Sequence record: PX502252.1
Origin: a phage
Length of the DNA stretch: 44,418 nucleotides
Reading direction: 5' to 3' (one strand)
Part shown: positions 116 through 40,473 of the stretch, piece by piece
How positions within the stretch are numbered: position 1 is the first letter of the stretch
How the letters are laid out: each line of letters begins with the position of its first letter
Translations under genes and position numbers: made by a program
Notes under the pieces: model-generated
The model's input: only the letters and a program-made list of their open reading frames with translations
Told to the model about the DNA's origin: nothing
Database searches by the model: none

Positions 116-138
116 ATTTACCGGACACTATAGGAGAG
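116..138 (+). promoter_or_regulatory. SP6-type phage RNAP promoter (ATTTACCGGACACTATAGGAGAG)
   Basis: Match to SP6-family promoter core GACACTATAG with conserved upstream ATTTAC; position analogous to T7 phi1.1A. Confidence 0.7.
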
Positions 139-280
139 CCGTCGGAGACGGGAAAGAAAGGGAATATAAAGGATATAAAGGAAGTAATAGGTATTAAAGG
201 TTATATAGGATTACCTAGGAATACCTATTACCTTCTTCCTTCCTCTTATTACTAATTAGAGGAAAGGGCAGACTTAGGTT
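139..280. other. AT-rich promoter-flanked element, candidate primary origin of replication
   Basis: Lies between two phage promoters just after the RNAP gene and before a gene-1.1-like ORF (T7 primary-origin architecture); 5' hairpin CCGTCggaGACGG; inverted repeat GTAATAGGTATT / AATACCTATTAC around CCTAGG; shares TATAGGATTACCTAGG with 32218-32345. Confidence 0.45.
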
Positions 281-296
281 GTCTCACATGTGAGAC
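281..296. promoter_or_regulatory. 16-bp perfect palindrome GTCTCACATGTGAGAC (site 2)
   Basis: Exact copy of the palindrome, 5 bp upstream of promoter at 302. Confidence 0.7.
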
Positions 297-301
297 TTCG
301 T

Positions 302-324
302 ATTTACCGGACAGTATAGATAAG
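302..324 (+). promoter_or_regulatory. SP6-type phage promoter, divergent variant (ATTTACCGGACAGTATAGATAAG)
   Basis: Upstream half matches consensus; core CAGTATAGATA differs at 2 positions from CACTATAGAAG. Confidence 0.5.
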
Positions 325-349
325 ACTAACTCACTTTGGAGATTTAACT

Positions 350-478
350 ATGCGTAACTTTGAGAAGATGACCCGTAAAGCTAATCGTTTTGACATGGAA
401 GAAGGGCAGAAGAAAGGCAAGAAGCTGAACAAACCTGTCCGCGACCGTGCATCTAAACGCGCTGCGTGGGAGTTCTAA
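350..478 (+). CDS. Small basic protein (42 aa), resembles T7 gene 1.1 product
   Basis: ATG with GGAG upstream; MRNFEKMTRKANRFDMEEGQKKGKKLNKPVRDRASKRAAWEF; N-terminus and size match my recollection of T7 gp1.1; below ORF-track size cutoff. Confidence 0.6.
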   Translation: MRNFEKMTRKANRFDMEEGQKKGKKLNKPVRDRASKRAAWEF

Positions 479-481
479 GTT

Positions 482-2470
482 ATGGCTATTATTCAGAATG
501 TACCGTGTCCTGCCTGTCAAAAGAATGGACATGATGTTACCGGCAACCATCTCATGATCTTTGATGATGGTGCTGGCTATTGCAACCGTGGTCACTTCCA
601 CGATAACGGAAAGCCATACTACCATAAGCCCGAAGGTGGTATCGAGATAACCGAGTTGCCTATTACTGGCAATATCAAATATACACCTTCTCAGTTCAAA
701 GAGATGGAGAGGGAAGGGAAGATAAGCGACCCTAAGCTACGCGCCATCGCACTAGGTGGTATGCGTATGAAAGACCGTTGGGAGGTTATGAATGAGCAAG
801 AAAGGGCAGACCAAGAAGCAGAGTGGAAACTCGATGTTGAATGGTTCCTCACGCTTAAGCGTAAGAACCTTGTATCCCGACACATTCGCGGTGACATCGC
901 AGCACTATATGATGTGCGAGTGGGCCATGATGAAGATGGAAGAGTCAATCGTCACTATTATCCACGATTCGAGAAGGGTGAGCTAGTAGGCGCTAAGTGC
1001 CGTACATTACCTAAAGATTTTAAGTTTGGTCACTTAGGTAAACTCTTTGGTATGCAAGACCTTTTCGGGATGAATACTTTGTCTCACGTGTTAGACAAGG
1101 GAAGACGAAAGGATTGCTTACTTATCGTAGGCGGTGAACTTGATGCACTAGCAGCACAGCAGATGCTTCTTGATTCTGCCAAGGGTACTAAGTGGGAAGG
1201 CCAGCCTTATCATGTATGGTCTGTCAATAAGGGTGAGTCTTGCCTCGAAGAGATAGTGCAAAACCGTGAGCACATCGCCCAATTCAAGAAGATTATCTGG
1301 GGCTTCGATGGTGATGAGGTAGGGCAGAAGCAGAACCAGCAAGCGGCTCGCCTGTTCCCCGGCAAATCCTATATCCTTGAATACCCTTCTGGTTGCAAAG
1401 ATGCCAACAAGGCATTGATGGCTGGCAAGGCTAAAGAATTTGTGGATGCTTGGTTTAATGCAAAGTCATCTGATGAAGTCTTTGGTAGCCAGATTAAATC
1501 TATCGCATCTCAAAGAGATAAGCTCAAGGCTGCACGTCCAGAACAAGGGCTGTCATGGCCTTGGCCTAAGCTAAACAAGGTAACGCTGGGTATCCGTAAG
1601 AACCAGCTTATCATTATAGGTGCAGGCTCTGGTGTTGGTAAGACAGAGTTTCTCCGTGAAGTAGTTAAGCACCTCATTGAAGAACACGGTGAATCTGTAG
1701 GCATCATTTCTACAGAAGACCCGATGGTCAAGGTGTCCCGTGCTTTTATCGGCAAATGGATTGATAAGCGTATTGAGTTACCGCCGACCAACGACCCGAA
1801 AGAAGATGGATACCGTGAGGTATTCGACTATACAGAGGAAGAGGCTAATGCTGCCATTGATTATGTAGCTGATACAGGGAAGCTATTTGTGGCTGACCTA
1901 GAGGGTGATTATTCAATGGAGAAGGTAGAGCAAACTTGCCTAGAGTTTGAGGCTATGGGTATTTCTAATATCATCATTGATAACTTAACGGGGATTAAAT
2001 TAGATGAGCGTGCTTTTGGTGGGAAGGTTGGTGCACTTGATGAATGCGTCAAGCGGATTGGTACTATCAAAGACCGACACCCAGTTACTATATTCCTTGT
2101 ATCACACCTTACACGTCCTCCGGCAAACCGTACCCAACACGAAGAAGGTGGCGAGGTTATCCTTTCTGACTTCCGAGGCTCAGGAGCTATCGGATTCTGG
2201 GCATCTTACGCCTTGGGGATTGAGCGTAACACAAGAGCTGAAACGCTTGATGAAAGGACTACCACGTACATCTCATGTGTCAAAGATCGTGACCAAGGTA
2301 TCTACACAGGAACCAAAGTCATGCTTAAGGGTGACATTCAAACCGGACGTTTGAGAGAACCACAGGCTAGAACAAGGTCATTTGATACAGGTGAAGCAAG
2401 GCAACAAGAAGTACCGGATTTACCGGACACTATAGAAGAGACAACCTTTGATGATGAACAGGAGTTTTGA
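482..2470 (+). CDS. DNA primase/helicase (T7 gp4-like)
   Basis: N-terminal Cys4 zinc ribbon (CPACQ...CNRGH), helicase Walker A GAGSGVGKTEF, acidic C-terminus ending DDEQEF; 662 aa. Confidence 0.95.
   Translation: MAIIQNVPCPACQKNGHDVTGNHLMIFDDGAGYCNRGHFHDNGKPYYHKPEGGIEITELPITGNIKYTPSQFKEMEREGKISDPKLRAIALGGMRMKDRWEVMNEQERADQEAEWKLDVEWFLTLKRKNLVSRHIRGDIAALYDVRVGHDEDGRVNRHYYPRFEKGELVGAKCRTLPKDFKFGHLGKLFGMQDLFGMNTLSHVLDKGRRKDCLLIVGGELDALAAQQMLLDSAKGTKWEGQPYHVWSVNKGESCLEEIVQNREHIAQFKKIIWGFDGDEVGQKQNQQAARLFPGKSYILEYPSGCKDANKALMAGKAKEFVDAWFNAKSSDEVFGSQIKSIASQRDKLKAARPEQGLSWPWPKLNKVTLGIRKNQLIIIGAGSGVGKTEFLREVVKHLIEEHGESVGIISTEDPMVKVSRAFIGKWIDKRIELPPTNDPKEDGYREVFDYTEEEANAAIDYVADTGKLFVADLEGDYSMEKVEQTCLEFEAMGISNIIIDNLTGIKLDERAFGGKVGALDECVKRIGTIKDRHPVTIFLVSHLTRPPANRTQHEEGGEVILSDFRGSGAIGFWASYALGIERNTRAETLDERTTTYISCVKDRDQGIYTGTKVMLKGDIQTGRLREPQARTRSFDTGEARQQEVPDLPDTIEETTFDDEQEF
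2418..2440 (+). promoter_or_regulatory. SP6-type phage promoter embedded in 3' end of primase/helicase gene (ATTTACCGGACACTATAGAAGAG)
   Basis: Full consensus match; in-frame encodes LPDTIEE. Confidence 0.65.
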
Positions 2471-2631: not shown

Positions 2632-2648
2632 TGTATTTATCAGGGCTT

Positions 2649-2664
2649 GTCTCACATGTGAGAC
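2649..2664. promoter_or_regulatory. 16-bp perfect palindrome GTCTCACATGTGAGAC (site 3)
   Basis: Exact copy; intergenic. Confidence 0.7.
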
Positions 2665-2703: not shown

Positions 2704-3318
2704 ATGTATAAATTAGTATTGAATGTAGGTGACTCTGTACGCAATATCAAGAAAGGCTCAAGTCGCTACCTTTGCCGTGGTATCGTAACCTTTGTAGGTG
2801 AGAATTTGTACTATGTAGAATATAGTAATGGTGCTAAACAGTATTACCATAAGAAGACAGCACATAACTTTCTTGAGAAGATTGTCGAATCACTCAATGA
2901 CAAAGTATGTAATGCATATATCAGTATTGCTAATAGCGTTACTGGTGGTACACGTACCACACTTAAGAAAGAGCGCCGCAATGTAATCACTGGTAAGACT
3001 CAAAGTGAAATGGTTAAGCAGTGCGGCACTGCATTAGGTGTTACACAGTTTAATACTCGTGCATTGGGTAAATCCACAGGGCAAGCTATGGTAAAGATTG
3101 GCGAAGCCATGATGCATCCAAATGTGCCTGTACGAATCATGGATGTTGACCATGCAATCACAGAACACGGTACGCAACGACGTGTAATTAATAAGCATTT
3201 TGCCGACACTATAGAAGGTATTATTCGTAAGCAAGGGTTGAAGGGTCTTCACATCTTAAATGGTGAAGAATTACTGTACCTGCCTATCGTTACTGAAGAA
3301 ACATACGTGAATATCTAA
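2704..3318 (+). CDS. Hypothetical protein (204 aa)
   Basis: ATG 6 nt after CTGGAGG; ORF-track frame 2698-3318; no motif recognised. Confidence 0.7.
   Translation: MYKLVLNVGDSVRNIKKGSSRYLCRGIVTFVGENLYYVEYSNGAKQYYHKKTAHNFLEKIVESLNDKVCNAYISIANSVTGGTRTTLKKERRNVITGKTQSEMVKQCGTALGVTQFNTRALGKSTGQAMVKIGEAMMHPNVPVRIMDVDHAITEHGTQRRVINKHFADTIEGIIRKQGLKGLHILNGEELLYLPIVTEETYVNI
3197..3219 (+). promoter_or_regulatory. Possible intragenic phage promoter (CATTTTGCCGACACTATAGAAGG)
   Basis: Core GACACTATAGAAGG exact, upstream region partially matching; in-frame encodes ADTIEG. Confidence 0.4.
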
Positions 3319-3328
3319 GGAGTTAATC

Positions 3329-3755: not shown

Positions 3756-3780
3756 TGTCTCACGCGTGAGACAGCCTTTT
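3756..3780 (+). terminator. Palindrome variant TGTCTCACGCGTGAGACA followed by GCCTTTT (site 4); hairpin plus T-run
   Basis: 18-bp perfect palindrome with centre CGCG instead of ATGT, then T-tract. Confidence 0.5.
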
Positions 3781-6476: not shown

Positions 6477-6499
6477 ATTTACTGGACACTATAGAAGGA
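6477..6499 (+). promoter_or_regulatory. SP6-type phage promoter (ATTTACTGGACACTATAGAAGGA)
   Basis: Consensus match, intergenic. Confidence 0.75.
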
Positions 6500-6946: not shown

Positions 6947-7246
6947 ATGATGGAAGAAGTAATTCAAGCTAAACATGTAGGTATCATCTTTCGTGATTTA
7001 GAGCAGCGTAAAGTTGCAGGTCACACTCGTCTGGCTAAAGAAGAAGACACAGCAATCACTACTGTTGAACAAGCAGATGCCTATCGTGGGCCAGAGTTTA
7101 CTCAAGGTGAAACTTGTCACCAATTGAGCCTGTCGCTTTGTGATACTATTGCTAGTGTGAATGTTCAAGAAGTTGAAGACGGTGAGATTGTTAGTTACGT
7201 CTACCCTCTAGACACTATTGCACGCATTAAAGTAATTCATAAATAA
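6947..7246 (+). CDS. Hypothetical protein (99 aa)
   Basis: TAAGGAG upstream; start 6947 or 6950. Confidence 0.6.
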   Translation: MMEEVIQAKHVGIIFRDLEQRKVAGHTRLAKEEDTAITTVEQADAYRGPEFTQGETCHQLSLSLCDTIASVNVQEVEDGEIVSYVYPLDTIARIKVIHK

Positions 7247-7267
7247 TTACTGGACACTATAGAACAA
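7245..7267 (+). promoter_or_regulatory. SP6-type phage promoter variant (AATTACTGGACACTATAGAACAA) overlapping stop codon of upstream gene
   Basis: Core ACTGGACACTATAGAA conserved; downstream AAGAG replaced by ACAA. Confidence 0.6.
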
Positions 7268-8491: not shown

Positions 8492-8507
8492 GTCTCACGT
8501 GTGAGAC
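8492..8507. promoter_or_regulatory. Palindrome variant GTCTCACGTGTGAGAC (site 5), 15 bp upstream of phage promoter
   Basis: Same arms GTCTCAC/GTGAGAC with centre GT. Confidence 0.65.
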
Positions 8508-8522: not shown

Positions 8523-8545
8523 ATTTACTGGACACTATAGAAGAG
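8523..8545 (+). promoter_or_regulatory. SP6-type phage promoter (ATTTACTGGACACTATAGAAGAG)
   Basis: Full consensus match. Confidence 0.8.
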
Positions 8546-8970: not shown

Positions 8971-9029
8971 TAATAGCAGGTGTTGCCTCTGTTAGTCCTG
9001 GTTGACTATCACGCTCACCTCATCTAATG

Positions 9030-9061
9030 CCCTGTCTGCCTTAGTGTAGGCAGGGTCTTTT
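9030..9061 (+). terminator. Stem-loop plus T-run terminator (CCCTGTCTGCC...GGCAGGGTCTTTT)
   Basis: GC-rich inverted repeat followed by TCTTTT; same architecture as terminator at 18121. Confidence 0.65.
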
Positions 9062-10960: not shown

Positions 10961-11695
10961 TTGGCTATTGTACCATTGCCTGACTCGCCTCATCGAAGTG
11001 TACTGGTAATCCCTGATACTCATGCACCTTATGAGCACCCCGATACCTTAGAGTTCCTTGCAGCAGTGGCAGCACGTTATCGACCAGACACAGTGGTACA
11101 TCTTGGAGATGAGGCAGATAAACATGCCCTGTCATTCCATGATTCGGATCCAAATTTGGACAGTGCTGGCATGGAGTTAGAGAAAGCTCGTGTCTTCATG
11201 CACAAGTTGCACAAGATGTTTCCTGTGATGCGCCTGTGTCACTCTAATCACGGCTCTATGCACTTCCGTAAGGCAAGCGCCAAGGGTATTCCAGTGCAAT
11301 ATCTTCGTACCTACCGAGAAGTCTTCTTCCCGCAGGGAGGTGGCGACCAGTGGGATTGGCAGCATACGCATGTACTTGAGTTGCCGAATGGCGAACAGGT
11401 GGCATTCAAGCATCAACCTGCTGGCTCTGTCCTAGCAGATGCAGCGCATGAGCGTATGAATCTTGTGTGTGGTCACTTGCATGGTAAGATGTCTGTGGAG
11501 TACGCACGTAATACACATGAACAGTATTGGGCTGTGCAGGGTGGCTGCTTAATTGATGAGTCATCCCGTGCATTTGCCTATGGGCGTGAGTCTAAATACA
11601 AGCCAGCATTAGGTTGTGTGGTTATTCTGGAAGGTGTGCCTCATATTGTCCCGATGCAAACCAATAGCGACAACCGTTGGATTGGCAAGATTTAG
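10961..11695 (+). CDS. Calcineurin-like metallophosphoesterase; start codon uncertain (TTG at 10961, no in-frame ATG upstream)
   Basis: VLVIPDTHAPYEHPD (DxH), HLGDEAD (GDxxD), NHG, GHLH motifs; frame open from 10817 without ATG/GTG. Confidence 0.7.
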   Translation: MAIVPLPDSPHRSVLVIPDTHAPYEHPDTLEFLAAVAARYRPDTVVHLGDEADKHALSFHDSDPNLDSAGMELEKARVFMHKLHKMFPVMRLCHSNHGSMHFRKASAKGIPVQYLRTYREVFFPQGGGDQWDWQHTHVLELPNGEQVAFKHQPAGSVLADAAHERMNLVCGHLHGKMSVEYARNTHEQYWAVQGGCLIDESSRAFAYGRESKYKPALGCVVILEGVPHIVPMQTNSDNRWIGKI

Positions 11696-11712
11696 TTGAC
11701 ACTATAGAACAA
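11690..11712 (+). promoter_or_regulatory. SP6-type phage promoter variant (ATTTAGTTGACACTATAGAACAA)
   Basis: Core TGACACTATAGAA conserved; upstream ATTTAG as in SP6 itself. Confidence 0.6.
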
Positions 11713-16830: not shown

Positions 16831-16853
16831 ATTTACTGGACACTATAGAAGGG
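16831..16853 (+). promoter_or_regulatory. SP6-type phage promoter (ATTTACTGGACACTATAGAAGGG) upstream of major capsid gene
   Basis: Full consensus match. Confidence 0.8.
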
Positions 16854-16903
16854 AGAAAAGTTCTCCCTAGTTATCAATTTGATTTATAAGGAGATTATAA
16901 CAC

Positions 16904-18120: not shown

Positions 18121-18156
18121 GCCCTATCTACCTTGCGTAGGTAGGGTTCTTTTGTT
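18121..18156 (+). terminator. Stem-loop plus T-run terminator after capsid gene (GCCCTATCTACC...GGTAGGGTTCTTTTG)
   Basis: Same architecture as 9030-9061. Confidence 0.7.
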
Positions 18157-22038: not shown

Positions 22039-24981
22039 ATGGCAATTGAACGTCAAGCTGTACAAGGTTTAGAAAGAGTACAGTCAAGGGGCGCGCCAAC
22101 ACCTATGTCTTTCACACCACGACAAGTGAGTATCTCAGGGGGCGCTGATGCCTCCGGTAGTAGATTTTTGGAAGACTTAGTAAACGCCGCAAGTAGTGTG
22201 GCTGATGTCACTACTGCTATCCTTAATCAGCAAGTAGAAGACGATAAGGTTCGCCAGATGGATAGGGCTTTGTCTGGCATGATGCCTTCTGAGGATGCCA
22301 CGGTAGGCGGTGCTCGTGCTCATATGCTGGTTAGTTTACAAAATGATGTAATCGCACAGACAACTGCGCTACAAGCAGAAGCACAGCGATTTCAAGGTAG
22401 TGACGAGGATTGGGAAAACTATGTAGTTCAATCTCGTAATGAGGTACAAAATAGATTATGGCAAAGTTATCCAGAGCTTCGTGGTGACAAAGATTCTATG
22501 AGGCTTGTCACTAACGCGTTCATGGAGCAGCAACCTAGAATTACTGCAACTAGAGCAGAGGCTAAACTTCGTCAAGAAGAAGAAGCACGAATGCAATCTA
22601 TGCAGTCTCGTATTATCATGGCTACAAGGGACGTAGCGCCAGATGCCACTGGTGCAGCTCTTATCCAGCTACAAAAAGAAGCACTGGCGATGGGTCTTAG
22701 TAAACCTGAGTTTGATCAAATGGTTGCTAAGATTGCATCTGAAAGAGCGGCAGTAGGAGATGATAGTCTTATTCAGGGAACCAAGGCATTGGTGGATGAT
22801 AAGGGTGTCTCTTTGTATGACCGTGTTGGTGCTTTGCAAACTGGAGAAATTCAAGCTAACAGAACTTGGGCTGCTCAGAATCAGGTTGCCCTCTTCGAGA
22901 AGAAAGATGCAGCTATAAAGGCATTCGATGCAGGGCAACTTACTCGCGAAGAGTTACTTCAGGTAATGCAGAATCACAATGAATTGACTGGTGGCACTGC
23001 TTGGTCTGATAGCGAGATCAAGGCTATCTTCGATAGGCAAGCTAAGGTTAATGCAGAGAAAGCAAAGCTCGAAGATCTTATTGCACGAGGTGAATCTGGG
23101 TCGCCTTTAGGCTTACAGGACATTAGTAAGGATGACAGAAAGACATATGCTGAAGCCTTAGTTAGTACCTACACTAAGCTGGCAGAAGATGAAATTGCTC
23201 GTACTGGTGCAACGGGAGAACAGGCTGAAGCTATTCGCGGTAGGTATGAGCAGATGCGTTATCTTAAATTGGGTCAACAGCTTATTGAAGACCCGATCAT
23301 TAAGGAAAGGTATTCGTCGCTTATGCAGCTATCCTCTGCCAACCTCAAGGATATGAATGTTGAACCTGAAGCACTGCAAACTATCATGCGAGCACGTGAT
23401 TCTATTCCAGAGGATGCACGTCGTGCTGTTATGGGAGACAAAGAATATGCCTTTGTTGAGAACTATGACTTAGCAACTCGCATGGGATATAACACAGGTC
23501 AAGCTATTGAGTTTGCACAGAATGCCTCTCGCGGCGAGAAATTACAAGGTTCTGTGCTCAAAGAACTTAATGATGATGTAGATGGAGTAGTTAGTGACAT
23601 TGCAGGAGGTAGCTGGCTCACTTTTGGTGATAACATGAGTGAAATGGGACGTGACATTATGATGGAGGAGGCAAGTACAATTGCTAGAGCAATGAAGGTT
23701 GCAGGCCATAATAATGACACTATTAAGCGTCACCTTAAATCCTATCTTACAAGCCAGTATACACAATTGTCAGAAGGTTTCTTTACTCAAGGTGTTCTTG
23801 TAAAAGGAGACATTCGTACATTAGGGGACACTATAGGAGTAAACCAAGGAGACGTCCCAATGGCTCTCCGTCAGTACCTAGATAATAACAAACAAGCTCT
23901 ACTAGATGCATCAGGTGGGTTAGAGGAAGGCGACCTGTATTTTGATGTAGATGCGCAGCGTGGCCTCTTTACTATACGTGCAGGCTCTGGTCGTGTGCCT
24001 GTTACACAGGCAATGCCTTTGTCTGAAATCAAAGGTCAATCCTTGCTTAAGCAACGGTATGATGCAGAGGTTAAAGCACGTGATGAAGGGCGTAAGAATT
24101 TTGAAGCACAACAAATGCGAATGTGGGGTGCAGGTGGATATCAAGCACAGCCACCTGCAAAGACTACAGCCAAAACTGTAGGCTCACGTGGTATTGCTGA
24201 CTTCTTAATGTCTCCCGCCTTTGCATCAGGTGAAAGATTGCCAGCAAACTTTGAGTTTGGCTATAAGAGGAATAATATGGACTTTTATAACTATGTGGCT
24301 AAGACTGAGAATAGCGCCAATGTAGGGTTCGACCGAGTAGCGGGAGTTTATACACCATACAAAGATGCACATGGTCAGTCTGTAGGTTATGGTCACTTCC
24401 TTACTGCTGAAGAGAAGAAGAACGGATACATTATGATTGGTACAGAGAAAGTGCCATTCACTCCGGGGCAATCTCAATTAACACCAGAACGTGCCATGCG
24501 CCTCCTACAGCAAGACTTGAAGAGCCATGTGCCAAGCACTTCAGGGTGGGCTGTTCCCTTCGAAGAGATGCACCCAGGTGTTCAGCGTGGCCTTATGGAT
24601 TTGTCCTATAACTTAGGTAAAGGAGGCATCCAGAATGCTCCTAAGGCATATGCTGCGTTTAAGGCTGGCAAGTTTACTGATGGCTTTATCGAGATGTTAT
24701 CTACTGCATCTACTGAAGGTAAACGTAGCACTGGGTTGTTGGTTCGTAGGGCAGAAGCATATAATCTTGCCCAGAGCGGAGGTGCTGTTCCTAAGATTAG
24801 TGAAGTAGAGACACGAGCAGATGGGTCCATGTATGTGAAGTTTGCAGGTCAGATGTCAGAGGCTTTCGTAAGTAAATCAATCTATAATCAGATTGGTAAG
24901 GATGGGTGGATGCAAGTGTACCCTCCAAAACAAGGTGCGCTTGCACCTAACACTCAGGTTGGTAGAATCAAACTAAGCTAG
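22039..24981 (+). CDS. Internal virion protein with C-terminal T4-lysozyme-like (GH24) muramidase domain
   Basis: 980 aa; segment E...YTPYKDAHGQSVGYGHFLT matches the E/D/T catalytic region pattern of T4 lysozyme (YKDTEGYYTIGIGHLLT). Confidence 0.8.
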   Translation: MAIERQAVQGLERVQSRGAPTPMSFTPRQVSISGGADASGSRFLEDLVNAASSVADVTTAILNQQVEDDKVRQMDRALSGMMPSEDATVGGARAHMLVSLQNDVIAQTTALQAEAQRFQGSDEDWENYVVQSRNEVQNRLWQSYPELRGDKDSMRLVTNAFMEQQPRITATRAEAKLRQEEEARMQSMQSRIIMATRDVAPDATGAALIQLQKEALAMGLSKPEFDQMVAKIASERAAVGDDSLIQGTKALVDDKGVSLYDRVGALQTGEIQANRTWAAQNQVALFEKKDAAIKAFDAGQLTREELLQVMQNHNELTGGTAWSDSEIKAIFDRQAKVNAEKAKLEDLIARGESGSPLGLQDISKDDRKTYAEALVSTYTKLAEDEIARTGATGEQAEAIRGRYEQMRYLKLGQQLIEDPIIKERYSSLMQLSSANLKDMNVEPEALQTIMRARDSIPEDARRAVMGDKEYAFVENYDLATRMGYNTGQAIEFAQNASRGEKLQGSVLKELNDDVDGVVSDIAGGSWLTFGDNMSEMGRDIMMEEASTIARAMKVAGHNNDTIKRHLKSYLTSQYTQLSEGFFTQGVLVKGDIRTLGDTIGVNQGDVPMALRQYLDNNKQALLDASGGLEEGDLYFDVDAQRGLFTIRAGSGRVPVTQAMPLSEIKGQSLLKQRYDAEVKARDEGRKNFEAQQMRMWGAGGYQAQPPAKTTAKTVGSRGIADFLMSPAFASGERLPANFEFGYKRNNMDFYNYVAKTENSANVGFDRVAGVYTPYKDAHGQSVGYGHFLTAEEKKNGYIMIGTEKVPFTPGQSQLTPERAMRLLQQDLKSHVPSTSGWAVPFEEMHPGVQRGLMDLSYNLGKGGIQNAPKAYAAFKAGKFTDGFIEMLSTASTEGKRSTGLLVRRAEAYNLAQSGGAVPKISEVETRADGSMYVKFAGQMSEAFVSKSIYNQIGKDGWMQVYPPKQGALAPNTQVGRIKLS

Positions 24982-24998
24982 TGTTATACTCAAGGTTT

Positions 24999-25014
24999 GT
25001 CTCACATGTGAGAC
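24999..25014. promoter_or_regulatory. 16-bp perfect palindrome GTCTCACATGTGAGAC (site 6), between internal virion protein genes
   Basis: Exact copy, flanked by T/A extending palindrome to 18 bp. Confidence 0.7.
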
Positions 25015-25048
25015 ATGCCTTTATGAATGACACTAACTAGGAGGTAAC

Positions 25049-28000
25049 ATGGTTGATAGTATTAACCAAAACTGGGTGGCGGTGACTCAACGCAAGTTAC
25101 CGCCTACCTTCTCTCAAGTTGCTGAAGCCGAACGTAGGGTAGAAGACCAGAGAGCTAAGGATAAAGTATTTCAAACAGCAATAGAAAGTGAGTGGGCTTT
25201 GTACGGTGGACAACGTGCCTATGAACGCCACACTACAGAGTTTACTGAACAAGAAGGTTATGAAGTACCTGAATCAACTAAGGATGAACTATCCAAGTTG
25301 TATGGGTATGAAATAGCGCAAGACATAGTTAAGAATGTGAAGTCTCCAGAAGAGTTGCAATTCCGTATGTCTAATGCTGCTGCTGATAAAGACAGAGCAG
25401 ACATCTTAGCACGTAATGGTTTCACAGGTTTTAGCGCACAGATTGCTGCTGGCATTCTTGACCCTGTAGGTTGGGCGGCTTCTCTAGTAGCTGCACCTGT
25501 AGCTGGTGCTGTCAAAGTAGGTCGTCTAGGTAGGATTATCAAGACGGCTGCCTTATCTGGTGCTGAAAATGCTGCATTAGAAGCTGTGCTTGCACAAGGT
25601 GATTACCAACGAGGTGTCGATGATGTACTGGCTGCTGCCGGGTTTGGTATGATTATGGGCGGTACTATTGGCGCTGCAACTAGGGAACGCATAGCCAGTG
25701 CTGGTTCTCGTACAGCGGCAGAGAGAGCAGAGGTTGTATTTGATGACTTGGACACCGTAGTAAAAGGTGCTGATGAGTTTGACTCGTCTGCTGCTCGTGC
25801 TGTACGTGAGGCCATGGAGTATGACGCGTATATGGCAGCACGTAATTATGAACCACTTCGTGCAAGAGAGGTGGATGCAGATATGGCAATTCTATCTCAC
25901 ACAGACAACTTGAAAGCCAATGCGTCGGTAAGGATGAGTGCTAGTGAGAAAGGACTACTGAAGAAACAGATACGCCAACTGGAAGCAGAAGCAGCCACAC
26001 TTAAGGGGAAGAAGATAGATGCTGTAGCAGAGGCTGCCGCCGCTAAGGGTGCACCTAAATCTGCTGCGGACAGATTGGATTTAGATGTTCAGAAGAAAGC
26101 ACTGGCACGTAGATTCGATGAACCACTTGCTGATTTACAAGCGCGTCTAGATGAGTTGAATGCCAAGTTATCTCGTGCGAACAATGTAGGTAAGGCTAAG
26201 GAGGAGCTTAAGAGATTCTCATCGCTGTCCCGTGAAGATCAAATAAAGGAACTAGGTTTAGACGCACCAATGCGTAAGGTGGAGATGACCCGTGCTGTAC
26301 GCGATGCAGTAGCTGCAATCCGTGCCGAACGTAAGAAGACACCTACCGAAATACATGCTGGACAAGTTGCAGAAGAGGCAATCAAACAAAAGGCAGATGA
26401 CTCTATTGGTGCTAAACGTGTTGAAGGTTCAGAGATTGCAGGCGAGCAGTTTGACTTATCTAAAAACATGGAAGAGCTTATGGACGACTTGGCACGAGAA
26501 GCATATCAGTCAGATGTGCGGCCTATTAATCTTAAGGGTCTAGGTTCGGTGTCTTCTGTGATTCTTAACTCAGAGAACCCTGTGTTCCGAGGTCTAGGCC
26601 TTCGTCTGCTTGAAAATGCTCAGGGTGGTGCATATCAAGGTAAGACAGCTTCTATCTTATCAGATGTGTATGGCAACCTTATTCGTCATGCAGAACGTAA
26701 CAGGTACAATGATGGTTTCTCTCAATTCATCAAAGATAACAACCTGCGTGCAGTAGATTATCTTAATCCTGCAACGACACGGGATTTCAATAATCAGATT
26801 TATACAGCAATTGTTCGTGGCATACCAGAAGATACACCTCGTGGTGTTAAACTGGCAGCCGAAGGTATTGCTGATAAACTCAAGAAAGCACTTGAGATTC
26901 GTAAGCAAGCAGGAGAGCATGGATTCGAGGATGTACAATCTGCTAAGGATTACATCCCTGTTATCTATGACGGTATCAAAATCACAGAGGCAGTTAACAA
27001 GCTAGGTAGCAGTGAAGCTGTCATACACTTGCTGTCTAAAGGTTATCAGACAGGCAAGTACAAGCTTGGCAAGAAAGCTGCTGATGCACTAGCCAAAGTC
27101 CAGTATATTCGCGCATCTGACTCTACCCTCTCTAGTCGTGTTGCATTCGATAGAGTGGTATCCCAGCAGCAGCAGGTTCAGTTGATTGAGGATCTGAAGA
27201 AAGCAGGAGTACCAGATCGTATCATTGATAATTTCATTGAAGGTACGGAATTAGCAGAAATGGCTGAATCGGTATCCAATCGAGCTAAAGCCAGTATGGG
27301 TATTAATACGCAAGCCGAATACGGTGGTTTGAAGGTGCAGGATTTGCTTAATACCAACGTAGGTGAGCTAACTGAGAACTACGGCAAAGAGGCAGCGGGT
27401 GGTGCTGCATTAGCTGCTATGGGTTTCCCTACTCGCCAATCTGTGCTGAACGCAATAGATGCCGCAGAACGCGCAGGCCGCAATATGGCGGGGTCAAATG
27501 CTAAGGCAATCAAACAGCTTAGGTCTGAGGCAGAAATGCTAAGAGATGCCGTTAAGCTTATTTACGGCAACACTATAGACGCCGACCCTAACTCTGGAAT
27601 TGTCAGGGGCACTAGACGTGTCCGCGAGATTACAGGCTTGTTACGATTAGGCCAAATGGGCTTCGCTCAGATACCCGAACTGGCACGTGCAATCTCTAAG
27701 ATGGGGCTAGGGACTGTGCTGAAGTCTGTACCTGCCACTAAGTTCTTACGTTCGAGAGCGGCTCGTAAAGGTGGCACGGCTCAGGGTGAGCTGCTTGAAC
27801 CTGAACTGCGGGAAATGGAGGAACTCTTAGGCTATATCGGGGAAGATAACTGGCTTACAGGGTGGAACGTCCGTCATGATGAGTTCGGAGAAACTGCTGA
27901 TAACCTAGGTAAGCTGTCCGCTATTATTGATAATGGCTTGGCTATGGGTAGTAGAATCAACACAATTCTCTCTGGTTTTAAAGCAGTACAAGGTGGTTCA

Positions 28001-28852
28001 GAGAAAATTGTAGCTCGCTCTATCAATAAGAGACTAAAGCAACATTTGATGGGTGAGCGACAGCTACCCAAAGCAGACCTTGAAGAAGTTGGCCTAAGTG
28101 AAGATGTCATGAAGAGACTTAAACGTCACTTTGATGATAACCCAATGTACGCTGATTACAACGGTGAAAAAGTTCGTATGATGAACTTTGATGCTATGGA
28201 GCCAGATCTGAGAGAAACAGTAGGTGTTGCTGTGCGAAGAATGTCAGGCCGTCTTATTCAACGTAACTTCATTGGTGATGAAGGTATCTGGATGAACAAA
28301 TGGTGGGGTAAAGCATTAACTCAGTTTAAGTCATTCTCTATCGTCTCTATTGAGAAACAGTTAATCCATGATTTACGAGGTGATAAGATTCAGGCTGCAC
28401 AGATACTTGCATGGTCTACTTTACTAGGTTATGCATCTTATTCACTACAGATGCAGCTGCAAGCGATTGGTAGGGAAGATAGAGACAAGTTCTTGAGGGA
28501 TAAGTTTGACACACAGAACATCGCTATGGGTGTCTTTAATAAACTCCCACAAGTTGCAGGCTTCGGTCTTGCTGGTGATGCTTTGGCAACCTTTGGCCTA
28601 ATGCCAGACTCCATGATGCAAGCACCGGGACGTATGGGCTTCCGTCAGCAAGGATTTGGTGATTTGGTAGCAGGTGCTGGTGTAATCAGTGATACAGTTA
28701 ATTTGTCACAAGCACTGGTTAAGTATGCCAGTGGGGATGATGATGTCTCTACTAGGCAGTTGGTGGACAAGGTGCGTCGCCTTGTTCCTTTGGCAAATAC
28801 TATTGGTGTAGGTCAGATGACTAAAGCCAGTGTAGACTTATTGGAGGATTGA
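25049..28852 (+). CDS. Internal virion (core/ejection) protein, T7 gp16-like
   Basis: 1267 aa; size and position. Confidence 0.85.
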   Translation: MVDSINQNWVAVTQRKLPPTFSQVAEAERRVEDQRAKDKVFQTAIESEWALYGGQRAYERHTTEFTEQEGYEVPESTKDELSKLYGYEIAQDIVKNVKSPEELQFRMSNAAADKDRADILARNGFTGFSAQIAAGILDPVGWAASLVAAPVAGAVKVGRLGRIIKTAALSGAENAALEAVLAQGDYQRGVDDVLAAAGFGMIMGGTIGAATRERIASAGSRTAAERAEVVFDDLDTVVKGADEFDSSAARAVREAMEYDAYMAARNYEPLRAREVDADMAILSHTDNLKANASVRMSASEKGLLKKQIRQLEAEAATLKGKKIDAVAEAAAAKGAPKSAADRLDLDVQKKALARRFDEPLADLQARLDELNAKLSRANNVGKAKEELKRFSSLSREDQIKELGLDAPMRKVEMTRAVRDAVAAIRAERKKTPTEIHAGQVAEEAIKQKADDSIGAKRVEGSEIAGEQFDLSKNMEELMDDLAREAYQSDVRPINLKGLGSVSSVILNSENPVFRGLGLRLLENAQGGAYQGKTASILSDVYGNLIRHAERNRYNDGFSQFIKDNNLRAVDYLNPATTRDFNNQIYTAIVRGIPEDTPRGVKLAAEGIADKLKKALEIRKQAGEHGFEDVQSAKDYIPVIYDGIKITEAVNKLGSSEAVIHLLSKGYQTGKYKLGKKAADALAKVQYIRASDSTLSSRVAFDRVVSQQQQVQLIEDLKKAGVPDRIIDNFIEGTELAEMAESVSNRAKASMGINTQAEYGGLKVQDLLNTNVGELTENYGKEAAGGAALAAMGFPTRQSVLNAIDAAERAGRNMAGSNAKAIKQLRSEAEMLRDAVKLIYGNTIDADPNSGIVRGTRRVREITGLLRLGQMGFAQIPELARAISKMGLGTVLKSVPATKFLRSRAARKGGTAQGELLEPELREMEELLGYIGEDNWLTGWNVRHDEFGETADNLGKLSAIIDNGLAMGSRINTILSGFKAVQGGSEKIVARSINKRLKQHLMGERQLPKADLEEVGLSEDVMKRLKRHFDDNPMYADYNGEKVRMMNFDAMEPDLRETVGVAVRRMSGRLIQRNFIGDEGIWMNKWWGKALTQFKSFSIVSIEKQLIHDLRGDKIQAAQILAWSTLLGYASYSLQMQLQAIGREDRDKFLRDKFDTQNIAMGVFNKLPQVAGFGLAGDALATFGLMPDSMMQAPGRMGFRQQGFGDLVAGAGVISDTVNLSQALVKYASGDDDVSTRQLVDKVRRLVPLANTIGVGQMTKASVDLLED

Positions 28853-30015: not shown

Positions 30016-30298
30016 ACATGCAGCCACAGAGGATGAAGTAGGCATCCTGCATGGCGCTATTACGAAGATGTTTAATAAGAAAGCAAAGGCTATACTGGAC
30101 ACTATAGAAGCAGACCCTGATTCTGCTATGCACCTAGTGTCAGGTAAAGATATTGGAGCCATGTGTAAATGGGTTTTAGATAATGGCATTACTGCCACCC
30201 CTGCTGCACAGCAGGAGGAGTCCAAGTTATCTAAGCGCCTCAAGGCTATCCGAGAGGCGTCCAGTGGCAAGATCATTCAGTTCACTAAGGAGGATTGA
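29999..30298 (+). CDS. Terminase small subunit (start uncertain)
   Basis: Immediately upstream of large terminase with stop/start overlap; GTG 29999 has GGAGGA 6 nt upstream; ORF track extends to 29954. Confidence 0.55.
   Translation: MSVHNKHAATEDEVGILHGAITKMFNKKAKAILDTIEADPDSAMHLVSGKDIGAMCKWVLDNGITATPAAQQEESKLSKRLKAIREASSGKIIQFTKED
30091..30113 (+). promoter_or_regulatory. SP6-type phage promoter embedded in small terminase gene (TATACTGGACACTATAGAAGCAG)
   Basis: Core ACTGGACACTATAGAAG exact; in-frame encodes ILDTIEA. Confidence 0.55.
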
Positions 30299-32193: not shown

Positions 32194-32194
32194 T

Positions 32195-32217
32195 ATTTAC
32201 TGGACACTATAGGAGGA
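32195..32217 (+). promoter_or_regulatory. SP6-type phage promoter (ATTTACTGGACACTATAGGAGGA)
   Basis: Consensus match directly after terminase stop. Confidence 0.75.
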
Positions 32218-34568: not shown

Positions 34569-34646
34569 ATAAATAGTGCCGTTCATTTGAGCGGCCTATT
34601 ACTAGCCAATCTTCATAGGGAGGGTTGGAAAGTAATAGGAGACAAT

Positions 34647-37893: not shown

Positions 37894-38154
37894 ATGTTGG
37901 TTGTATCTAGTAAGAAGAAGCAGAGTGAAATGGATAAGATAGTTCAGACTGGCCTTGCTGCTAAGTCTGGTCAACCTCTTAATACTGGAACTGGTTCAAT
38001 TGACAAGATTGTTGAAACAGGCAAACAGGCCATGTCTGTTGGGTTGGACAAGAGTGAAAGGAAGCAGGCTGAGTTCAATAAGATCATTGAGTTCGGTAAG
38101 GAAGCTAAGAGGAAGTTCTTAAGGCCGTCTGCGGTAGAACCAGTAAGACACTAG
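37894..38154 (+). CDS. Small protein (86 aa) with three internal [DN]KI[VI][QE]xG repeats
   Basis: AAGGAGG SD; repeats DKIVQTG, DKIVETG, NKIIEFG; last gene before repeat-dense terminal region. Confidence 0.5.
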   Translation: MLVVSSKKKQSEMDKIVQTGLAAKSGQPLNTGTGSIDKIVETGKQAMSVGLDKSERKQAEFNKIIEFGKEAKRKFLRPSAVEPVRH

Positions 38155-38159
38155 GAAAC

Positions 38160-38900
38160 ATCTTAGTGTTGTACAAGGAATAACCAAAGTCAAAATTTTG
38201 ATGTAGGCGTGTGTGAGGTGTCTCGCCCTCGCCCTCGCCGGGATGTCCCCATAGGGTGGCCTGAGGGAATCCGTCTCCGACGGGCAGGGCTGATGCACTC
38301 CTTGTACTAGCTTAGTAGTACACAAGGGATGACCGTACTAGTTAGCTGGTACAGCCTAGTCTTTGCTCATGTACTAGCAAGGTGGAACGCCGGAGAACGC
38401 CTAGGACGGCCTAGGGATGGCTTAGTGGTGGACAAGGTGATTGCCTTAGTGAAGCCTCTTAGTGCATTCCTGAGGCTATTCAGGGCCATTCCTGAGCGTT
38501 TGACAGGGTGGGCGTGGGTGGGCTATCTGTTCGTTTCGTCGCTGGCGCTCCTCACTTCGTTTCGCCTAGCGCTCCACTCACAAGCCTGACGTGTACCTTA
38601 GTCACTACCTTAGGTTGTTCCTTGATGGATAGCTTAGGTTAACCTTAGTGGATTGCCTTAGTTAAAGCCTTAGTGCTTCACTTAGTATCAGCTTAGTAGT
38701 GTACCTTAGTCAGTCTTAGTGTTAGACCTTAGTGACTACATAGCTACGCTATAAGATGCAAATAGGTCGCGGTCGGTAGACCGCTAATAAGAAGTAATAG
38801 TAATAAGATGCAGTAGGAGGAACACCAGAAACCTAGTCAGCCTAGCCTATCCTAGCTCTGTATCTATTGCGTTTCCTTAGTCTCACATGTTAGACAACCT
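38160..38900. repeat. Non-coding, repeat-dense genome-terminus region (GC-rich block then array of about 11 CTTAGT/CCTTAGT units); probable site of terminal repeat/concatemer junction
   Basis: CTCGCC x3, TACTAG x3, ATTCCTGAG x2, TTCGTTTCG x2, then CTTAGT repeats every 10-14 bp (38590-38750); no SD-led ORFs; analogous to T7 terminal-repeat heptamer arrays. Confidence 0.6.
38880..38895. promoter_or_regulatory. Palindrome variant GTCTCACATGTTAGAC (site 7, one mismatch)
   Basis: 15/16 match to the recurrent palindrome. Confidence 0.5.
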
Positions 38901-38962
38901 AGGTTTATCATAGTAGTTGTGACATGTATCACATAAATAATCTATCTTAGTGAAACTTAGTG

Positions 38963-38991
38963 TTGACACAGGCAATCAACAGGTATACATT
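38963..38991 (+). promoter_or_regulatory. Candidate host sigma70 early promoter (TTGACA - 17 bp - TACATT)
   Basis: Perfect -35 hexamer, 17-bp spacer, -10 with 3/6 match; positioned at start of early region. Confidence 0.4.
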
Positions 38992-39212
38992 AGCAATCAC
39001 TGAGGCGGACCTAGCAAGCTGCCTCAGGTTATAAGCAGGAGAATTGATGCGTAAGCCGTAGCTAGCGGATGTAGTCGCATGAAGGCTTGAGTAAGGGGCC
39101 GTTTAATACCTTCTTCTTCTGGAGACAAAGCTTATAATACCGCTCTTTAACAATTTGCTTAGTGTAACCTATGTATGCCGTGGTTAATTACTTATTGAAT
39201 GAGGTATTAACT

Positions 39213-39290
39213 ATGGGTAAGTTCCTTGCTGGTTTCATCCTTGCCACTGCTATCTTTGATAATGCAGCATTGGCTCTGGGTTTGTATTAA
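39213..39290 (+). CDS. Tiny hydrophobic peptide (25 aa)
   Basis: GAGG 8 nt upstream; MGKFLAGFILATAIFDNAALALGLY. Confidence 0.3.
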   Translation: MGKFLAGFILATAIFDNAALALGLY

Positions 39291-39311
39291 TAGACACAAG
39301 AGGGATTAACT

Positions 39312-39422
39312 ATGAGTTTAGCGACAACGAGTTACGAAGAATTATATGAAACCTACTACAACGCATTGGATGAAGGAGAAGAAGCATTATCCTTTGCTGA
39401 GTTTATGGAGGCTTTATCATGA
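39312..39422 (+). CDS. Small acidic early protein (36 aa)
   Basis: AGAGGGA SD; stop overlaps next start (ATGA). Confidence 0.4.
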   Translation: MSLATTSYEELYETYYNALDEGEEALSFAEFMEALS

Positions 39423-39601
39423 TTCTGAATAACCGTGAACTATCCGTTCTCTTCACCTTGTTATGCTATCTGATATATAGAAATGAGTCACTCAGTGATG
39501 ATGAGTTGTCTTTGTATCACCGCTTTCTTAACGATGGTTGGGTGGATACATTAAACCAGAAACGTGACTTGATGAAGGAGCTAACCAATGTATCAGCATG
39601 A
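39419..39601 (+). CDS. Early hypothetical protein (60 aa)
   Basis: ATGA-coupled to upstream ORF. Confidence 0.5.
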   Translation: MILNNRELSVLFTLLCYLIYRNESLSDDELSLYHRFLNDGWVDTLNQKRDLMKELTNVSA

Positions 39602-39812
39602 AGTTTTCTTTGAATCAGCCAGCGAAGCTATTCGCTTCTTTGAGGACATGCTGCGAAATGGTGTAGGTGTGCATGTACATAGCTTTCTACTAGATTATGA
39701 CACTGAATATCACCGCGTTACCTTGGTGTCTGAGTACGACCATCAAACGATTACCGAGTATCTAGGTAGCGAAGATTATGATTACGACCAAGTAATCACA
39801 ACAAACCTATAA
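39588..39812 (+). CDS. Early acidic hypothetical protein (74 aa)
   Basis: GAAGGAG 7 nt upstream of ATG. Confidence 0.6.
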   Translation: MYQHEVFFESASEAIRFFEDMLRNGVGVHVHSFLLDYDTEYHRVTLVSEYDHQTITEYLGSEDYDYDQVITTNL

Positions 39813-39991
39813 ATTAACTATTGACAGCCACGGCATACAAGGTTACATTAAGCATCAAGACGGCGACGTCTTTAAACATCCCGCTCTTTAACAATTTGGA
39901 TAGTCGCTTCTTAGTCTGGATAGGTTAAACCTAGGAGATTCTCTTGAGTCTCCTATAATGTAACCTAACTAACTAAATGAGGATTAATAAC

Positions 39992-40345
39992 ATGGCTATG
40001 TCTAATATGACTTACTCTCAGGTTTACAACACCGCTCACGCTGCATTAGTTGAACGTATCTGGGATGATGCTATTGATTGTATTGATAACGCACATGATG
40101 CAATCCATGAGGCGGCGGATAGGGCTGTACCAATCTATTATGCTGACATCTTCTCGGTGATGGCGAGTGAAGGCATTGATCATTTCTTCGAAGACTCCGG
40201 CCTGATGCCAGACGCTAAGGATGTAACGGTAGTATTGCAAGCCCGTATCTATGAGCAACTCACAATTGATCTGTGGGAACGTGTTCAGGATATGATTGAT
40301 GCATACATCGACTCCGCCGAAGATTTAGAAGAAGAGGAAGAATAA
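39992..40345 (+). CDS. ocr: Ocr-like DNA-mimic anti-restriction protein (T7 gene 0.3 homologue)
   Basis: 117 aa starting MAMSNMTY; shares HDAIH...[33 protein letters not shown]...[15 protein letters not shown] and acidic C-terminus with T7 Ocr as I recall it. Confidence 0.75.
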
Positions 40346-40346
40346 G

Positions 40347-40460
40347 ATGGAAAAACAATACAATTTCATCTTTTCAGACGGTGTGACCTTAAAATGTTCC
40401 TTGCGATTCGCACAGATTCGCGAGGAAGTGCTAGGAACTACATACAAACTATTTAGCTGA
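40347..40460 (+). CDS. Small early protein (37 aa)
   Basis: ATG 2 nt after ocr stop, GAGGAAG upstream; 3' end overlaps phage promoter. Confidence 0.35.
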   Translation: MEKQYNFIFSDGVTLKCSLRFAQIREEVLGTTYKLFS

Positions 40461-40473
40461 CACTATAAGAGAG
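40451..40473 (+). promoter_or_regulatory. SP6-type phage promoter variant (ATTTAGCTGACACTATAAGAGAG)
   Basis: Core TGACACTATA conserved; +1 region AAGAGAG shifted by one. Confidence 0.55.

What the first reader, a model, noticed from the sequence alone, without database searches (positions are those of the whole stretch)
116..40473. Promoter set is SP6-family with CTGG/CCGG at -12 to -9
About 12 sites share ATTTAC(T/C)GGACACTATAGAAG, differing from the canonical SP6 promoter ATTTAGGTGACACTATAGAAG mainly at three upstream positions, which fits a K1E/K1-5-type specificity. Several variants (302, 7245, 11690, 40451) deviate in the core or +1 region and may be weaker or differently timed.
Basis: partly seen in the sequence, partly recalled or inferred. 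Interest (0 to 1): 0.4.

Follow-up and report, generated by a model that had tools for sequence, protein, structure and literature searches.

The report
K1-5/K1E-type phage RNA polymerase promoters

Summary
Thirteen sites, all on the + strand, match ATTTAC(T/C)GGACACTATAGAAG or a close variant; shuffled sequence gives none. The window is a circularly permuted genome of a Vectrevirus (K1-5/K1E group), 89-93% identical in DNA to deposited relatives. It carries its own single-subunit RNA polymerase at 41723-44350. That enzyme is 97.3% identical to the K1-5 polymerase, 97.6% to K1E and 85.6% to SP6, and its specificity loop is identical to K1-5/K1E. Every site has a counterpart at the same map position in K1-5 and K1E, and the odd variants are the same odd variants there. 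Across 9-19 relatives, positions -17 to +4 are 98.2% conserved against 87-93% in the flanks. A polymerase 98% identical to this one has been shown in vitro to start at TATTTACTGGACACTATAGGAGGA, which equals window 32194-32217. That enzyme also uses the SP6 promoter, so the -12 to -10 difference looks like a preference and not strict orthogonality. Two additions: a 14th candidate, of SP6 type, lies inside gene 35 at 23819, and the variant sites are conserved site by site across SP6-like lineages, which suggests tuned strength. Weaker or later firing remains untested. Verdict: known kind, low interest.

The parts
40451..40471 (+). Leftmost phage promoter on the true genome map, ATTTAGCTGACACTATAAGAG, with A at +1 (40468). 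It overlaps the end of gp4 and lies upstream of gp5, gp6 and the RNA polymerase gene.
   Evidence: The same sequence occurs in K1-5 (2014) and K1E (2779), and 16 of 19 relatives carry the identical 21-mer. The TATAAGA start region also occurs at the same map position in SP6 (2104), L012, L013 and L014.
116..136 (+). Promoter ATTTACCGGACACTATAGGAG, the first one after the RNA polymerase gene and its terminator.
   Evidence: Counterparts at K1-5 6020, K1E 6824 and SP6 6118.
302..322 (+). Variant promoter ATTTACCGGACAGTATAGATA (G at -5), 31 nt upstream of gp8.
   Evidence: Identical in K1-5 (6204) and K1E (7008). The G at -5 is kept in all 17 relatives. The SP6 site at the same map position also has a deviant core (CACTATTG).
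2418..2438 (+). Promoter ATTTACCGGACACTATAGAAG inside the 3' end of the primase/helicase gene, upstream of gp9.5.
3197..3217 (+). Variant promoter ATTTTGCCGACACTATAGAAG inside the 3' end of gp10, upstream of gp10.5.
   Evidence: Identical in K1-5 (9010) and conserved in 15 relatives.
6477..6497 (+). Consensus promoter ATTTACTGGACACTATAGAAG after the DNA polymerase gene, upstream of gp15.
7245..7265 (+). Variant promoter AATTACTGGACACTATAGAAC, overlapping the gp15.5 stop codon and upstream of gp16.
   Evidence: A at -16 and C at +4 are kept in relatives. Sites with the same AATT...GAACA form occur in SP6 (13005, same flanking sequence) and in L012, L013 and L014.
8523..8543 (+). Consensus promoter upstream of gp18.
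11690..11710 (+). Variant promoter ATTTAGTTGACACTATAGAAC, overlapping the gp22 stop codon and upstream of gp23.
   Evidence: Identical in all 9 relatives that align there. The SP6 counterpart at 17428 also has C at +4.
16831..16851 (+). Consensus promoter 56 nt upstream of the major capsid gene. The transcript starts with a stable hairpin.
   Evidence: The 21-mer is identical to K1E 24431, which lies upstream of the K1E capsid gene. The K1E capsid-gene promoter drives expression with K1E polymerase in PMC6412113.
23819..23839 (+). Candidate 14th promoter of SP6 type (GGGG at -12 to -9), CATTAGGGGACACTATAGGAG, inside gene 35.
   Evidence: It scores 21.7 bits against a shuffle maximum of 16.6. 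Sites at the same position occur in R4596, CrRp3 and SP6. Synonymous codon positions in the motif are the most conserved of 170 three-codon windows across 15 homologues.
30090..30110 (+). Variant promoter CTATACTGGACACTATAGAAG inside the small terminase gene, upstream of the large terminase gene.
   Evidence: K1-5 and K1E have CAATACTGG... at the same position.
32195..32215 (+). Promoter ATTTACTGGACACTATAGGAG after the large terminase gene, upstream of gp41.
   Evidence: Window 32194-32217 is identical to the experimentally best promoter (2049-6) of a 98%-identical polymerase (PMC13029058).
34546..34566 (+). Consensus promoter upstream of the first tail-fibre/tailspike gene, whose likely ATG is at 34648.
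41723..44350 (+). Cognate single-subunit RNA polymerase gene (875 aa).
   Evidence: Pfam RNA_pol E=2.6e-88 and RPOL_N E=2.4e-31. 97.3% identical to K1-5, 97.6% to K1E and 85.6% to SP6, with a specificity loop identical to K1-5/K1E. 98% identical to RNAP No. 2049.
44358..44381 (+). Hairpin terminator after the polymerase gene. It appears again at 31-54 because window 1-91 repeats 44328-44418.
18121..18147 (+). Hairpin terminator after the major capsid gene.
   Evidence: A terminator is annotated at the same place in R4596.

Best explanation
These sites are the promoters for the phage's own single-subunit (T7/SP6-type) RNA polymerase, in a K1-5/K1E-like Vectrevirus genome. Host polymerase would first transcribe the early region, including the polymerase gene at 41723-44350. 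The phage enzyme would then bind each roughly 21-bp site, with -17 to -13 read as an AT-rich patch, -12 to -8 read by the specificity loop and -4 to -1 melted, and start at the G of TATAG. This would drive rightward transcription of the replication, structural, packaging and tail genes. The shift from SP6's GGT to C(T/C)G at -12 to -10 goes with one change among the three residues that align with the T7 specificity residues 748, 756 and 758: Ser here and in K1-5/K1E, Arg in SP6, at the position aligned with T7 N748. Shown here: the sites, their strand, their non-random number, their one-to-one correspondence with K1-5/K1E/SP6 sites, their conservation, and the cognate polymerase. Shown by others on near-identical parts: initiation at this sequence. 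Inferred: the order of events, the Ser/Arg read-out, and that the conserved site-specific variants set different strengths or timing.
For: There are 12 matches against 0 in shuffles, all on the coding strand, plus the 13th site. The genome is a Vectrevirus. K1-5 and K1E have the same consensus at the same map positions, and identical variants at 302, 11690 and 40451; the variant at 3197 is identical in K1-5. Positions -17 to +4 are 98.2% conserved and -8 to +1 are 99.9% conserved, against 87-93% in the flanks, across 9-19 relatives. The polymerase is confirmed by Pfam and has the K1-5/K1E loop [16 protein letters not shown], where SP6 has LRVRTCLMGDIKMSLQ. Four SP6-like lineages with different loops have different bases at -12 to -7. 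Most sites lie between genes or in the last bases of a gene, 31-217 nt upstream of the next start codon. From the literature: RNAP No. 2049, 98% identical to this enzyme, initiates on TATTTACTGGACACTATAGGAGGA, which equals window 32194-32217 (PMC13029058). K1E polymerase drives expression from the K1E capsid-gene promoter (PMC6412113), whose 21-mer in the K1E genome is identical to window 16831. A 2025 survey places K1E-type and SP6-type polymerase/promoter pairs in separate clusters (PMC11880802).
Against: No transcription data exist for this genome. The assignment of -12 to -10 to the Ser/Arg residue rests on an alignment to T7 at 35% identity. PMC11880802 reports that K1E and SP6 do not follow the T7-derived recognition rules. 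SP6 versus K1-5/K1E is effectively a single evolutionary contrast. RNAP No. 2049 was about as active on the SP6 promoter as on its own consensus (3.5% against 2% of T7 signal), so the three-base difference may matter little for discrimination.
Confidence: 0.95

Rival explanations
1. The sites are canonical SP6 (Zindervirus) promoters, and the upstream differences are noise.
For: The core from -9 to +4 is identical to SP6, and 8 sites lie within 3 mismatches of the SP6 promoter. A closely related polymerase uses the SP6 promoter in vitro (PMC13029058).
Against: C at -12 occurs in 10 of 13 sites and G at -10 in 10 of 13. None of the 13 sites has SP6's GGT at -12 to -10. The same bases are fixed in K1-5, K1E and 9-19 other relatives. 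The polymerase is 85.6% identical to SP6 but 97-98% to K1-5/K1E, with the K1-5/K1E loop.
Confidence: 0.03
2. The repeats serve mainly in DNA-level processes such as replication origins, recombination or packaging, and not as promoters.
For: In T7 (my own knowledge) the promoters just after the polymerase gene also serve the primary replication origin. The tandem pair at 116 and 302 sits at the equivalent place. I ran no test that bears on this.
Against: All sites point the same way as the genes and sit just upstream of genes or gene blocks. Identical sequences drive transcription with K1E-type polymerases (PMC6412113, PMC13029058). An origin role for one or two sites would add to promoter function and would not replace it.
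Confidence: 0.02
3. The variant sites (302, 3197, 7245, 11690, 30090, 40451) are decaying or neutral copies and not deliberately tuned promoters.
For: Several overlap coding sequence (2418, 3197, 30090, and the stop codons at 7245 and 11690), so coding constraint could explain part of their conservation.
Against: The variant bases are conserved site by site in 9-19 relatives. Some are kept across lineages whose specificity bases differ: TATAAGA before the polymerase gene in five lineages, and sites of the form AATT...GAACA in four lineages besides the window. Sites 302 and 40451 are intergenic or nearly so.
Confidence: 0.25

Closest known systems
Promoters of coliphages K1-5 and K1E (Vectrevirus, Molineuxvirinae)
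   Same: Same consensus ATTTAC(T/C)GGACACTATAGAAG, same number and map positions, and identical variant sequences at 302, 11690 and 40451 (3197 identical in K1-5). The polymerase is 97.3-97.6% identical with an identical specificity loop.
   Different: Small differences only. Site 116 ends GGAG where K1-5/K1E have GGAT. Site 32195 is ATTT...GGAG where K1-5 has AATT...GAAG. K1-5 has an extra weak site before gene 6 (2323) that the window lacks. The window has an SP6-type site inside gene 35 that K1-5/K1E lack, because its gene 35/36 module is only 43% and 37% identical to K1E.
Bacteriophage SP6 promoters (Zindervirus)
   Same: Identical from -17 to -13 and from -9 to +4. Promoters lie at the same map positions. 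Both have a deviant site before the polymerase gene with A at +1, and both have an AATT...GAAC site with the same flanking sequence (SP6 13005, window 7245).
   Different: GGT against C(T/C)G at -12 to -10. The polymerase is 85.6% identical, with Arg in place of Ser at the position aligned with T7 N748.
RNAP No. 2049 and its promoter 2049-6 (PMC13029058, 2026)
   Same: The polymerase is 98% identical (853/874). Promoter 2049-6 is identical to window 32194-32217.
   Different: No. 2049 has Gly where the window, K1-5, K1E and SP6 have Ser at the position aligned with T7 Q758. It comes from a different genome, reported as 91.76% identical to phage NTNC80A.
T7 class II and class III promoters
   Same: One phage polymerase reads a graded set of about a dozen 23-bp promoters. 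Consensus copies sit before highly expressed late genes and deviant copies before replication genes. This comparison rests on my own knowledge of T7.
   Different: The polymerases are only about 35% identical, the recognition bases differ, and PMC11880802 reports that K1E and SP6 do not follow the T7 recognition rules.

Membership tests
K1-5/K1E-type (Vectrevirus) phage-polymerase promoters | Conserved 21-bp site with the core ACACTATAG at -8 to +1 | tested here: met
   Eleven of 13 sites have the exact core. Site 302 has G at -5 and site 40451 has A at +1.
K1-5/K1E-type (Vectrevirus) phage-polymerase promoters | C(T/C)G at -12 to -10, as in the K1-5 and K1E genomes, instead of SP6's GGT | tested here: met
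   Nine of 13 sites have it. The same bases occur at the same map positions in K1-5 (L001) and K1E (L003).
K1-5/K1E-type (Vectrevirus) phage-polymerase promoters | A cognate single-subunit polymerase with the K1-5/K1E specificity loop is encoded in the same genome | tested here: met
   Gene at 41723-44350, with Pfam RNA_pol and RPOL_N. The loop is identical to K1-5/K1E.
K1-5/K1E-type (Vectrevirus) phage-polymerase promoters | Sites on the coding strand, at the same map positions as in relatives, and conserved more than their flanks | tested here: met
   All sites are on the + strand. They correspond one to one with relatives. Conservation is 98.2% against 87-93%.
K1-5/K1E-type (Vectrevirus) phage-polymerase promoters | The cognate polymerase initiates at +1 | not testable with these tools
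   Only indirect evidence exists: identical promoter sequences work with a 98%-identical polymerase (PMC13029058) and with K1E polymerase (PMC6412113).
Canonical SP6 (Zindervirus) promoters | GGT (or GGG) at -12 to -10, with a polymerase carrying Arg at the position aligned with T7 N748 | tested here: not met
   None of the 13 sites has GGT. Only the gene-35 candidate at 23819 has GGG. The polymerase has Ser at that position.

The most novel reading that the evidence does not exclude
The promoter set may be a conserved hierarchy, not one consensus plus noise. Each map position keeps its own deviations across SP6-like lineages whose specificity bases have changed. The promoter before the polymerase gene always starts TATA-A-GA, and sites of the form AATT...GAACA recur in every lineage examined. 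In addition, a 14th site of SP6 type inside gene 35 appears to travel with the SP6-like internal-virion-protein module. It would stay usable because the K1-5-type polymerase tolerates SP6-type bases at -12 to -10. If so, relaxed promoter discrimination allows module exchange between Zindervirus and Vectrevirus.
Probability: 0.3. Interest if true: 0.3.

Novelty: already known. Interest (0 to 1): 0.12.

Why it matters
The result is mainly useful for annotation. It fixes the transcription map of this genome and identifies the genome as a K1-5/K1E-like phage with a polymerase/promoter pair that is already in biotechnological use. The site-by-site conservation of the non-consensus promoters and the gene-35 internal site give modest, testable leads on how these phages grade gene expression. 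They also bear on how strictly K1E-type and SP6-type polymerases tell their promoters apart.

Tried and rejected
I looked for annotated promoter features in the K1-5, SP6, K1E, R4596 and CrRp3 records. None are annotated, only CDS and some terminators.

I looked for the published K1-5/K1E promoter tables. The Scholl 2002 paper and the SP6 promoter saturation-mutagenesis paper are not held. No held paper states the K1-5 consensus. Supplements of PMC6412113 and PMC11880802 are not held. I therefore compared the genomes directly.

I tested whether the gene-35 variant GACGCTATAG, seen in a more distant clade, is that clade's general promoter core. An IMG/VR scan found one match per related contig, so I found no evidence that it is. 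That thread was dropped.

Sigma-70-like matches are no more frequent than in shuffles, so they say nothing about these sites. Two TTGACA-N17-TACATT matches at 38963 and 39821 fit early host promoters. I did not pursue them.
Full report
**Observation.** Searching the window for ATTTACYGGACACTATAGAAG with up to three mismatches gives 12 matches, all on the + strand. They lie at 116, 302, 2418, 3197, 6477, 7245, 8523, 11690, 16831, 30090, 32195 and 34546. One hundred dinucleotide-preserving shuffles gave none. The site at 40451 (ATTTAGCTGACACTATAAGAG) is found when the SP6 promoter is used as the pattern.

If +1 is the G of TATAG, a count matrix of the 13 sites shows invariant bases at -14, -9 to -6 and -4 to -1. 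Position -12 is C in 10 sites and G in 3. Position -11 is T in 8 and C in 5. Position -10 is G in 10.

It scores 21.7 bits, and the best score in 50 shuffles was 16.6.

**What the window is.** The window matches Vectrevirus genomes (Autographiviridae, Molineuxvirinae; the K1-5/K1E group) over most of its length at 88-93% identity. The best matches are CrRp3, LL11, CC1, NTNC80A and K1-5.

It is circularly permuted relative to K1-5. Bases 1-91 repeat 44328-44418, which is an assembly overlap. Gene order follows K1E from gp1 to gp48.

The ORF at 41723-44350 is a single-subunit RNA polymerase (Pfam RNA_pol E=2.6e-88, RPOL_N E=2.4e-31). It is 97.3% identical to the K1-5 enzyme, 97.6% to K1E, 85.6% to SP6 and about 35% to T7.

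**Comparison with known promoter sets.** The same matrix was applied to K1-5, K1E and SP6, and each has a site at every corresponding map position.

| Window site | Sequence | Status in relatives |
|---|---|---|
| 302 | ATTTACCGGACAGTATAGATA | identical in K1-5 and K1E |
| 3197 | ATTTTGCCGACACTATAGAAG | identical in K1-5 (K1E has ATTTCGCCG...) |
| 11690 | ATTTAGTTGACACTATAGAAC | identical in K1-5 and K1E |
| 40451 | ATTTAGCTGACACTATAAGAG | identical in K1-5 and K1E |

None of the five deposited records I inspected annotates promoters.

I aligned each site and its flanks against 9 complete and 10 partial Vectrevirus genomes.

| Positions | Conservation |
|---|---|
| -17 to +4 | 98.2% |
| -8 to +1 | 99.9% |
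| 60 bases upstream of the site | 89-93% |
| 60 bases downstream of the site | 87-90% |

The flanks are restricted to what aligns, so the contrast is if anything understated.

**Placement.** Most sites lie between genes or in the last bases of a gene. They sit 31-217 nt upstream of the next start codon. The genes they precede are gp8, gp9.5, gp10.5, gp15, gp16, gp18, gp23, the major capsid gene, the large terminase gene, gp41 and the first tail gene, whose likely ATG is at 34648.

Site 40451 precedes gp5, gp6 and the polymerase gene itself. Hairpin terminators follow the polymerase gene (44358-44381, repeated at 31-54), gp18 (9029-9056) and the capsid gene (18121-18147). C at -11 marks the three promoters just after the polymerase gene (116, 302, 2418). 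T at -11 marks most of the later ones. This split is kept in relatives.

**Mechanism.** The sites are promoters for the phage's own polymerase. Direct experimental support exists for near-identical parts.
- PMC13029058 purified a metagenomic polymerase, 'No. 2049', that is 98% identical to the window's enzyme (853/874). It initiates on ATTTACTGGACACTATAG-type promoters.
- Its best promoter, TATTTACTGGACACTATAGGAGGA, is identical to window 32194-32217.
- PMC6412113 obtained expression with K1E polymerase from the K1E capsid-gene promoter. The 21-mer upstream of the K1E capsid gene is identical to window 16831.

**Specificity.** In the alignment with T7, the loop is [16 protein letters not shown] in the window, K1-5 and K1E, and LRVRTCLMGDIKMSLQ in SP6. 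The residue aligned with T7 N748 is Ser in the former and Arg in SP6. PMC11880802 names T7 R746, N748, R756 and Q758 as the base-reading residues. It places K1E-type and SP6-type pairs in separate clusters defined by positions 748, 756 and 758.

Two further SP6-like lineages from IMG/VR fit the pattern of loop and promoter changing together. L013 has the loop ...GDVFMSLQ and promoters TGTGTTGCACTATAGAAG. L014 has the loop RVRTVLSGDIKMALRLQ and promoters AGGGGCTACTATAGAA.

The Ser/Arg read-out of -12 to -10 remains an inference for three reasons:
- The T7 alignment is at 35% identity.
- PMC11880802 found that K1E and SP6 do not obey the T7-derived rules.
- No. 2049 was about as active on the SP6 promoter as on its own consensus (3.5% against 2% of the T7 signal).

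Natural sites in this genome also carry G at -12 (3197, 11690, 40451) and T or C at -10. One IMG/VR Vectrevirus contig (L008) has a canonical SP6 promoter at the tail-gene position. The difference from SP6 is therefore best described as a preference.

**The variants.** Whether they are weaker or fire at a different time cannot be tested here. They are not random decay, however.
- Their deviant bases are conserved site by site in relatives.
- The promoter before the polymerase gene reads TATAAGA, with A at +1, in the window, SP6, L012, L013 and L014.
- Sites of the form AATT...GAACA, like the window's gp16 promoter, occur in SP6, L012, L013 and L014. Flanking sequence confirms the same map position for the SP6 site.
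- The SP6 site matching 302 also has a deviant core.
- In PMC13029058, changes at +2 and +5 altered output about five-fold, so the start region does matter.

Coding constraint could explain part of the conservation at 2418, 3197 and 30090.

**The extra site at 23819.** It lies inside gene 35 and has SP6-type bases at -12 to -9. Genes 35 and 36 of the window are only 43% and 37% identical to K1E, and in length gene 36 resembles SP6.

The site is present as CATTAGGTGACACTATAGGAG in R4596 and CrRp3, and as CGCTAGGTGACACTATAGGTG in SP6. Across 15 homologues at 64-97% DNA identity, the codons GAC-ACT-ATA inside the motif have the lowest third-position entropy of 170 three-codon windows: 0.12 bits against a mean of 1.10. 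That suggests selection on the DNA or RNA itself, which would fit an internal promoter. It is not proof.

**Verdict.** The feature is the known K1-5/K1E promoter set in a new genome of a known genus. Interest is low.

Noticed in passing
window 98-113, 281-296, 1081-1096, 2649-2664, 3757-3772, 8492-8507, 24999-25014, 38880-38895 (+ strand): A 16-bp inverted repeat, GTCTCAC-NN-GTGAGAC, occurs 8 times where 0.19 are expected. Most copies lie just after stop codons, and three lie directly upstream of promoters 116, 302 and 8523. K1-5, K1E, R4596 and CrRp3 each have 8 copies at similar map positions. SP6 (9 copies), L012, L013 and L014 instead have GTC(C/T)AAC-NN-GTTGGAC, with changes in both arms that keep the pairing and frequent T-G (wobble) positions. 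That pattern hints at an RNA hairpin used for processing or stability. Its function is unknown.
   Followed up: partly
window 1-91 and 44328-44418: The two ends of the window are identical over 91 bases. This is a circular-assembly overlap, so the unique sequence is 44327 bp. The physical left end of the phage genome probably lies near 38300-38750, where short CCTTAGT-like repeats cluster.
   Followed up: partly
window 22039-28852 (genes 35 and 36): The internal virion protein genes are only 43% and 37% identical to K1E. In length, gene 36 resembles SP6's. Neighbouring genes are 78-98% identical to K1E. This suggests a mosaic module shared with R4596, CrRp3 and LL11.
   Followed up: partly
L008 2569-2763 (IMG/VR contig 3300029310_000051): A Vectrevirus contig carries a canonical SP6 promoter, ATTTAGGTGACACTATAGAAG, at the position of the tail-gene promoter. 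This would fit promoter and tail module having been acquired together from an SP6-like phage.
   Followed up: no
L078 (same contig as L013), gene 35 site: In the lineage whose promoters read ...GTTGCACTATAG, the gene-35 internal site reads GGTAGCACTATAGG. It has G at -8 like that lineage's own promoters, at the cost of an Asp-to-Ser change in the protein. This is one data point suggesting that the internal site tracks polymerase specificity.
   Followed up: partly
window 38963-38991 and 39821-39849: Two identical sigma-70-like matches (TTGACA, 17 nt, TACATT) lie in the early region upstream of gp1 and of the ocr-like gp3. They are candidate host-polymerase early promoters.
   Followed up: no
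window 40468-40512, 16848-16870, 34572-34600: Predicted transcripts from promoters 40451, 16831 and 34546 carry stable hairpins near the 5' end: -17.0, -11.2 and -15.9 kcal/mol over the first 45 nt. By analogy with T7 late mRNA leaders (my own knowledge), these might stabilise the mRNA.
   Followed up: no
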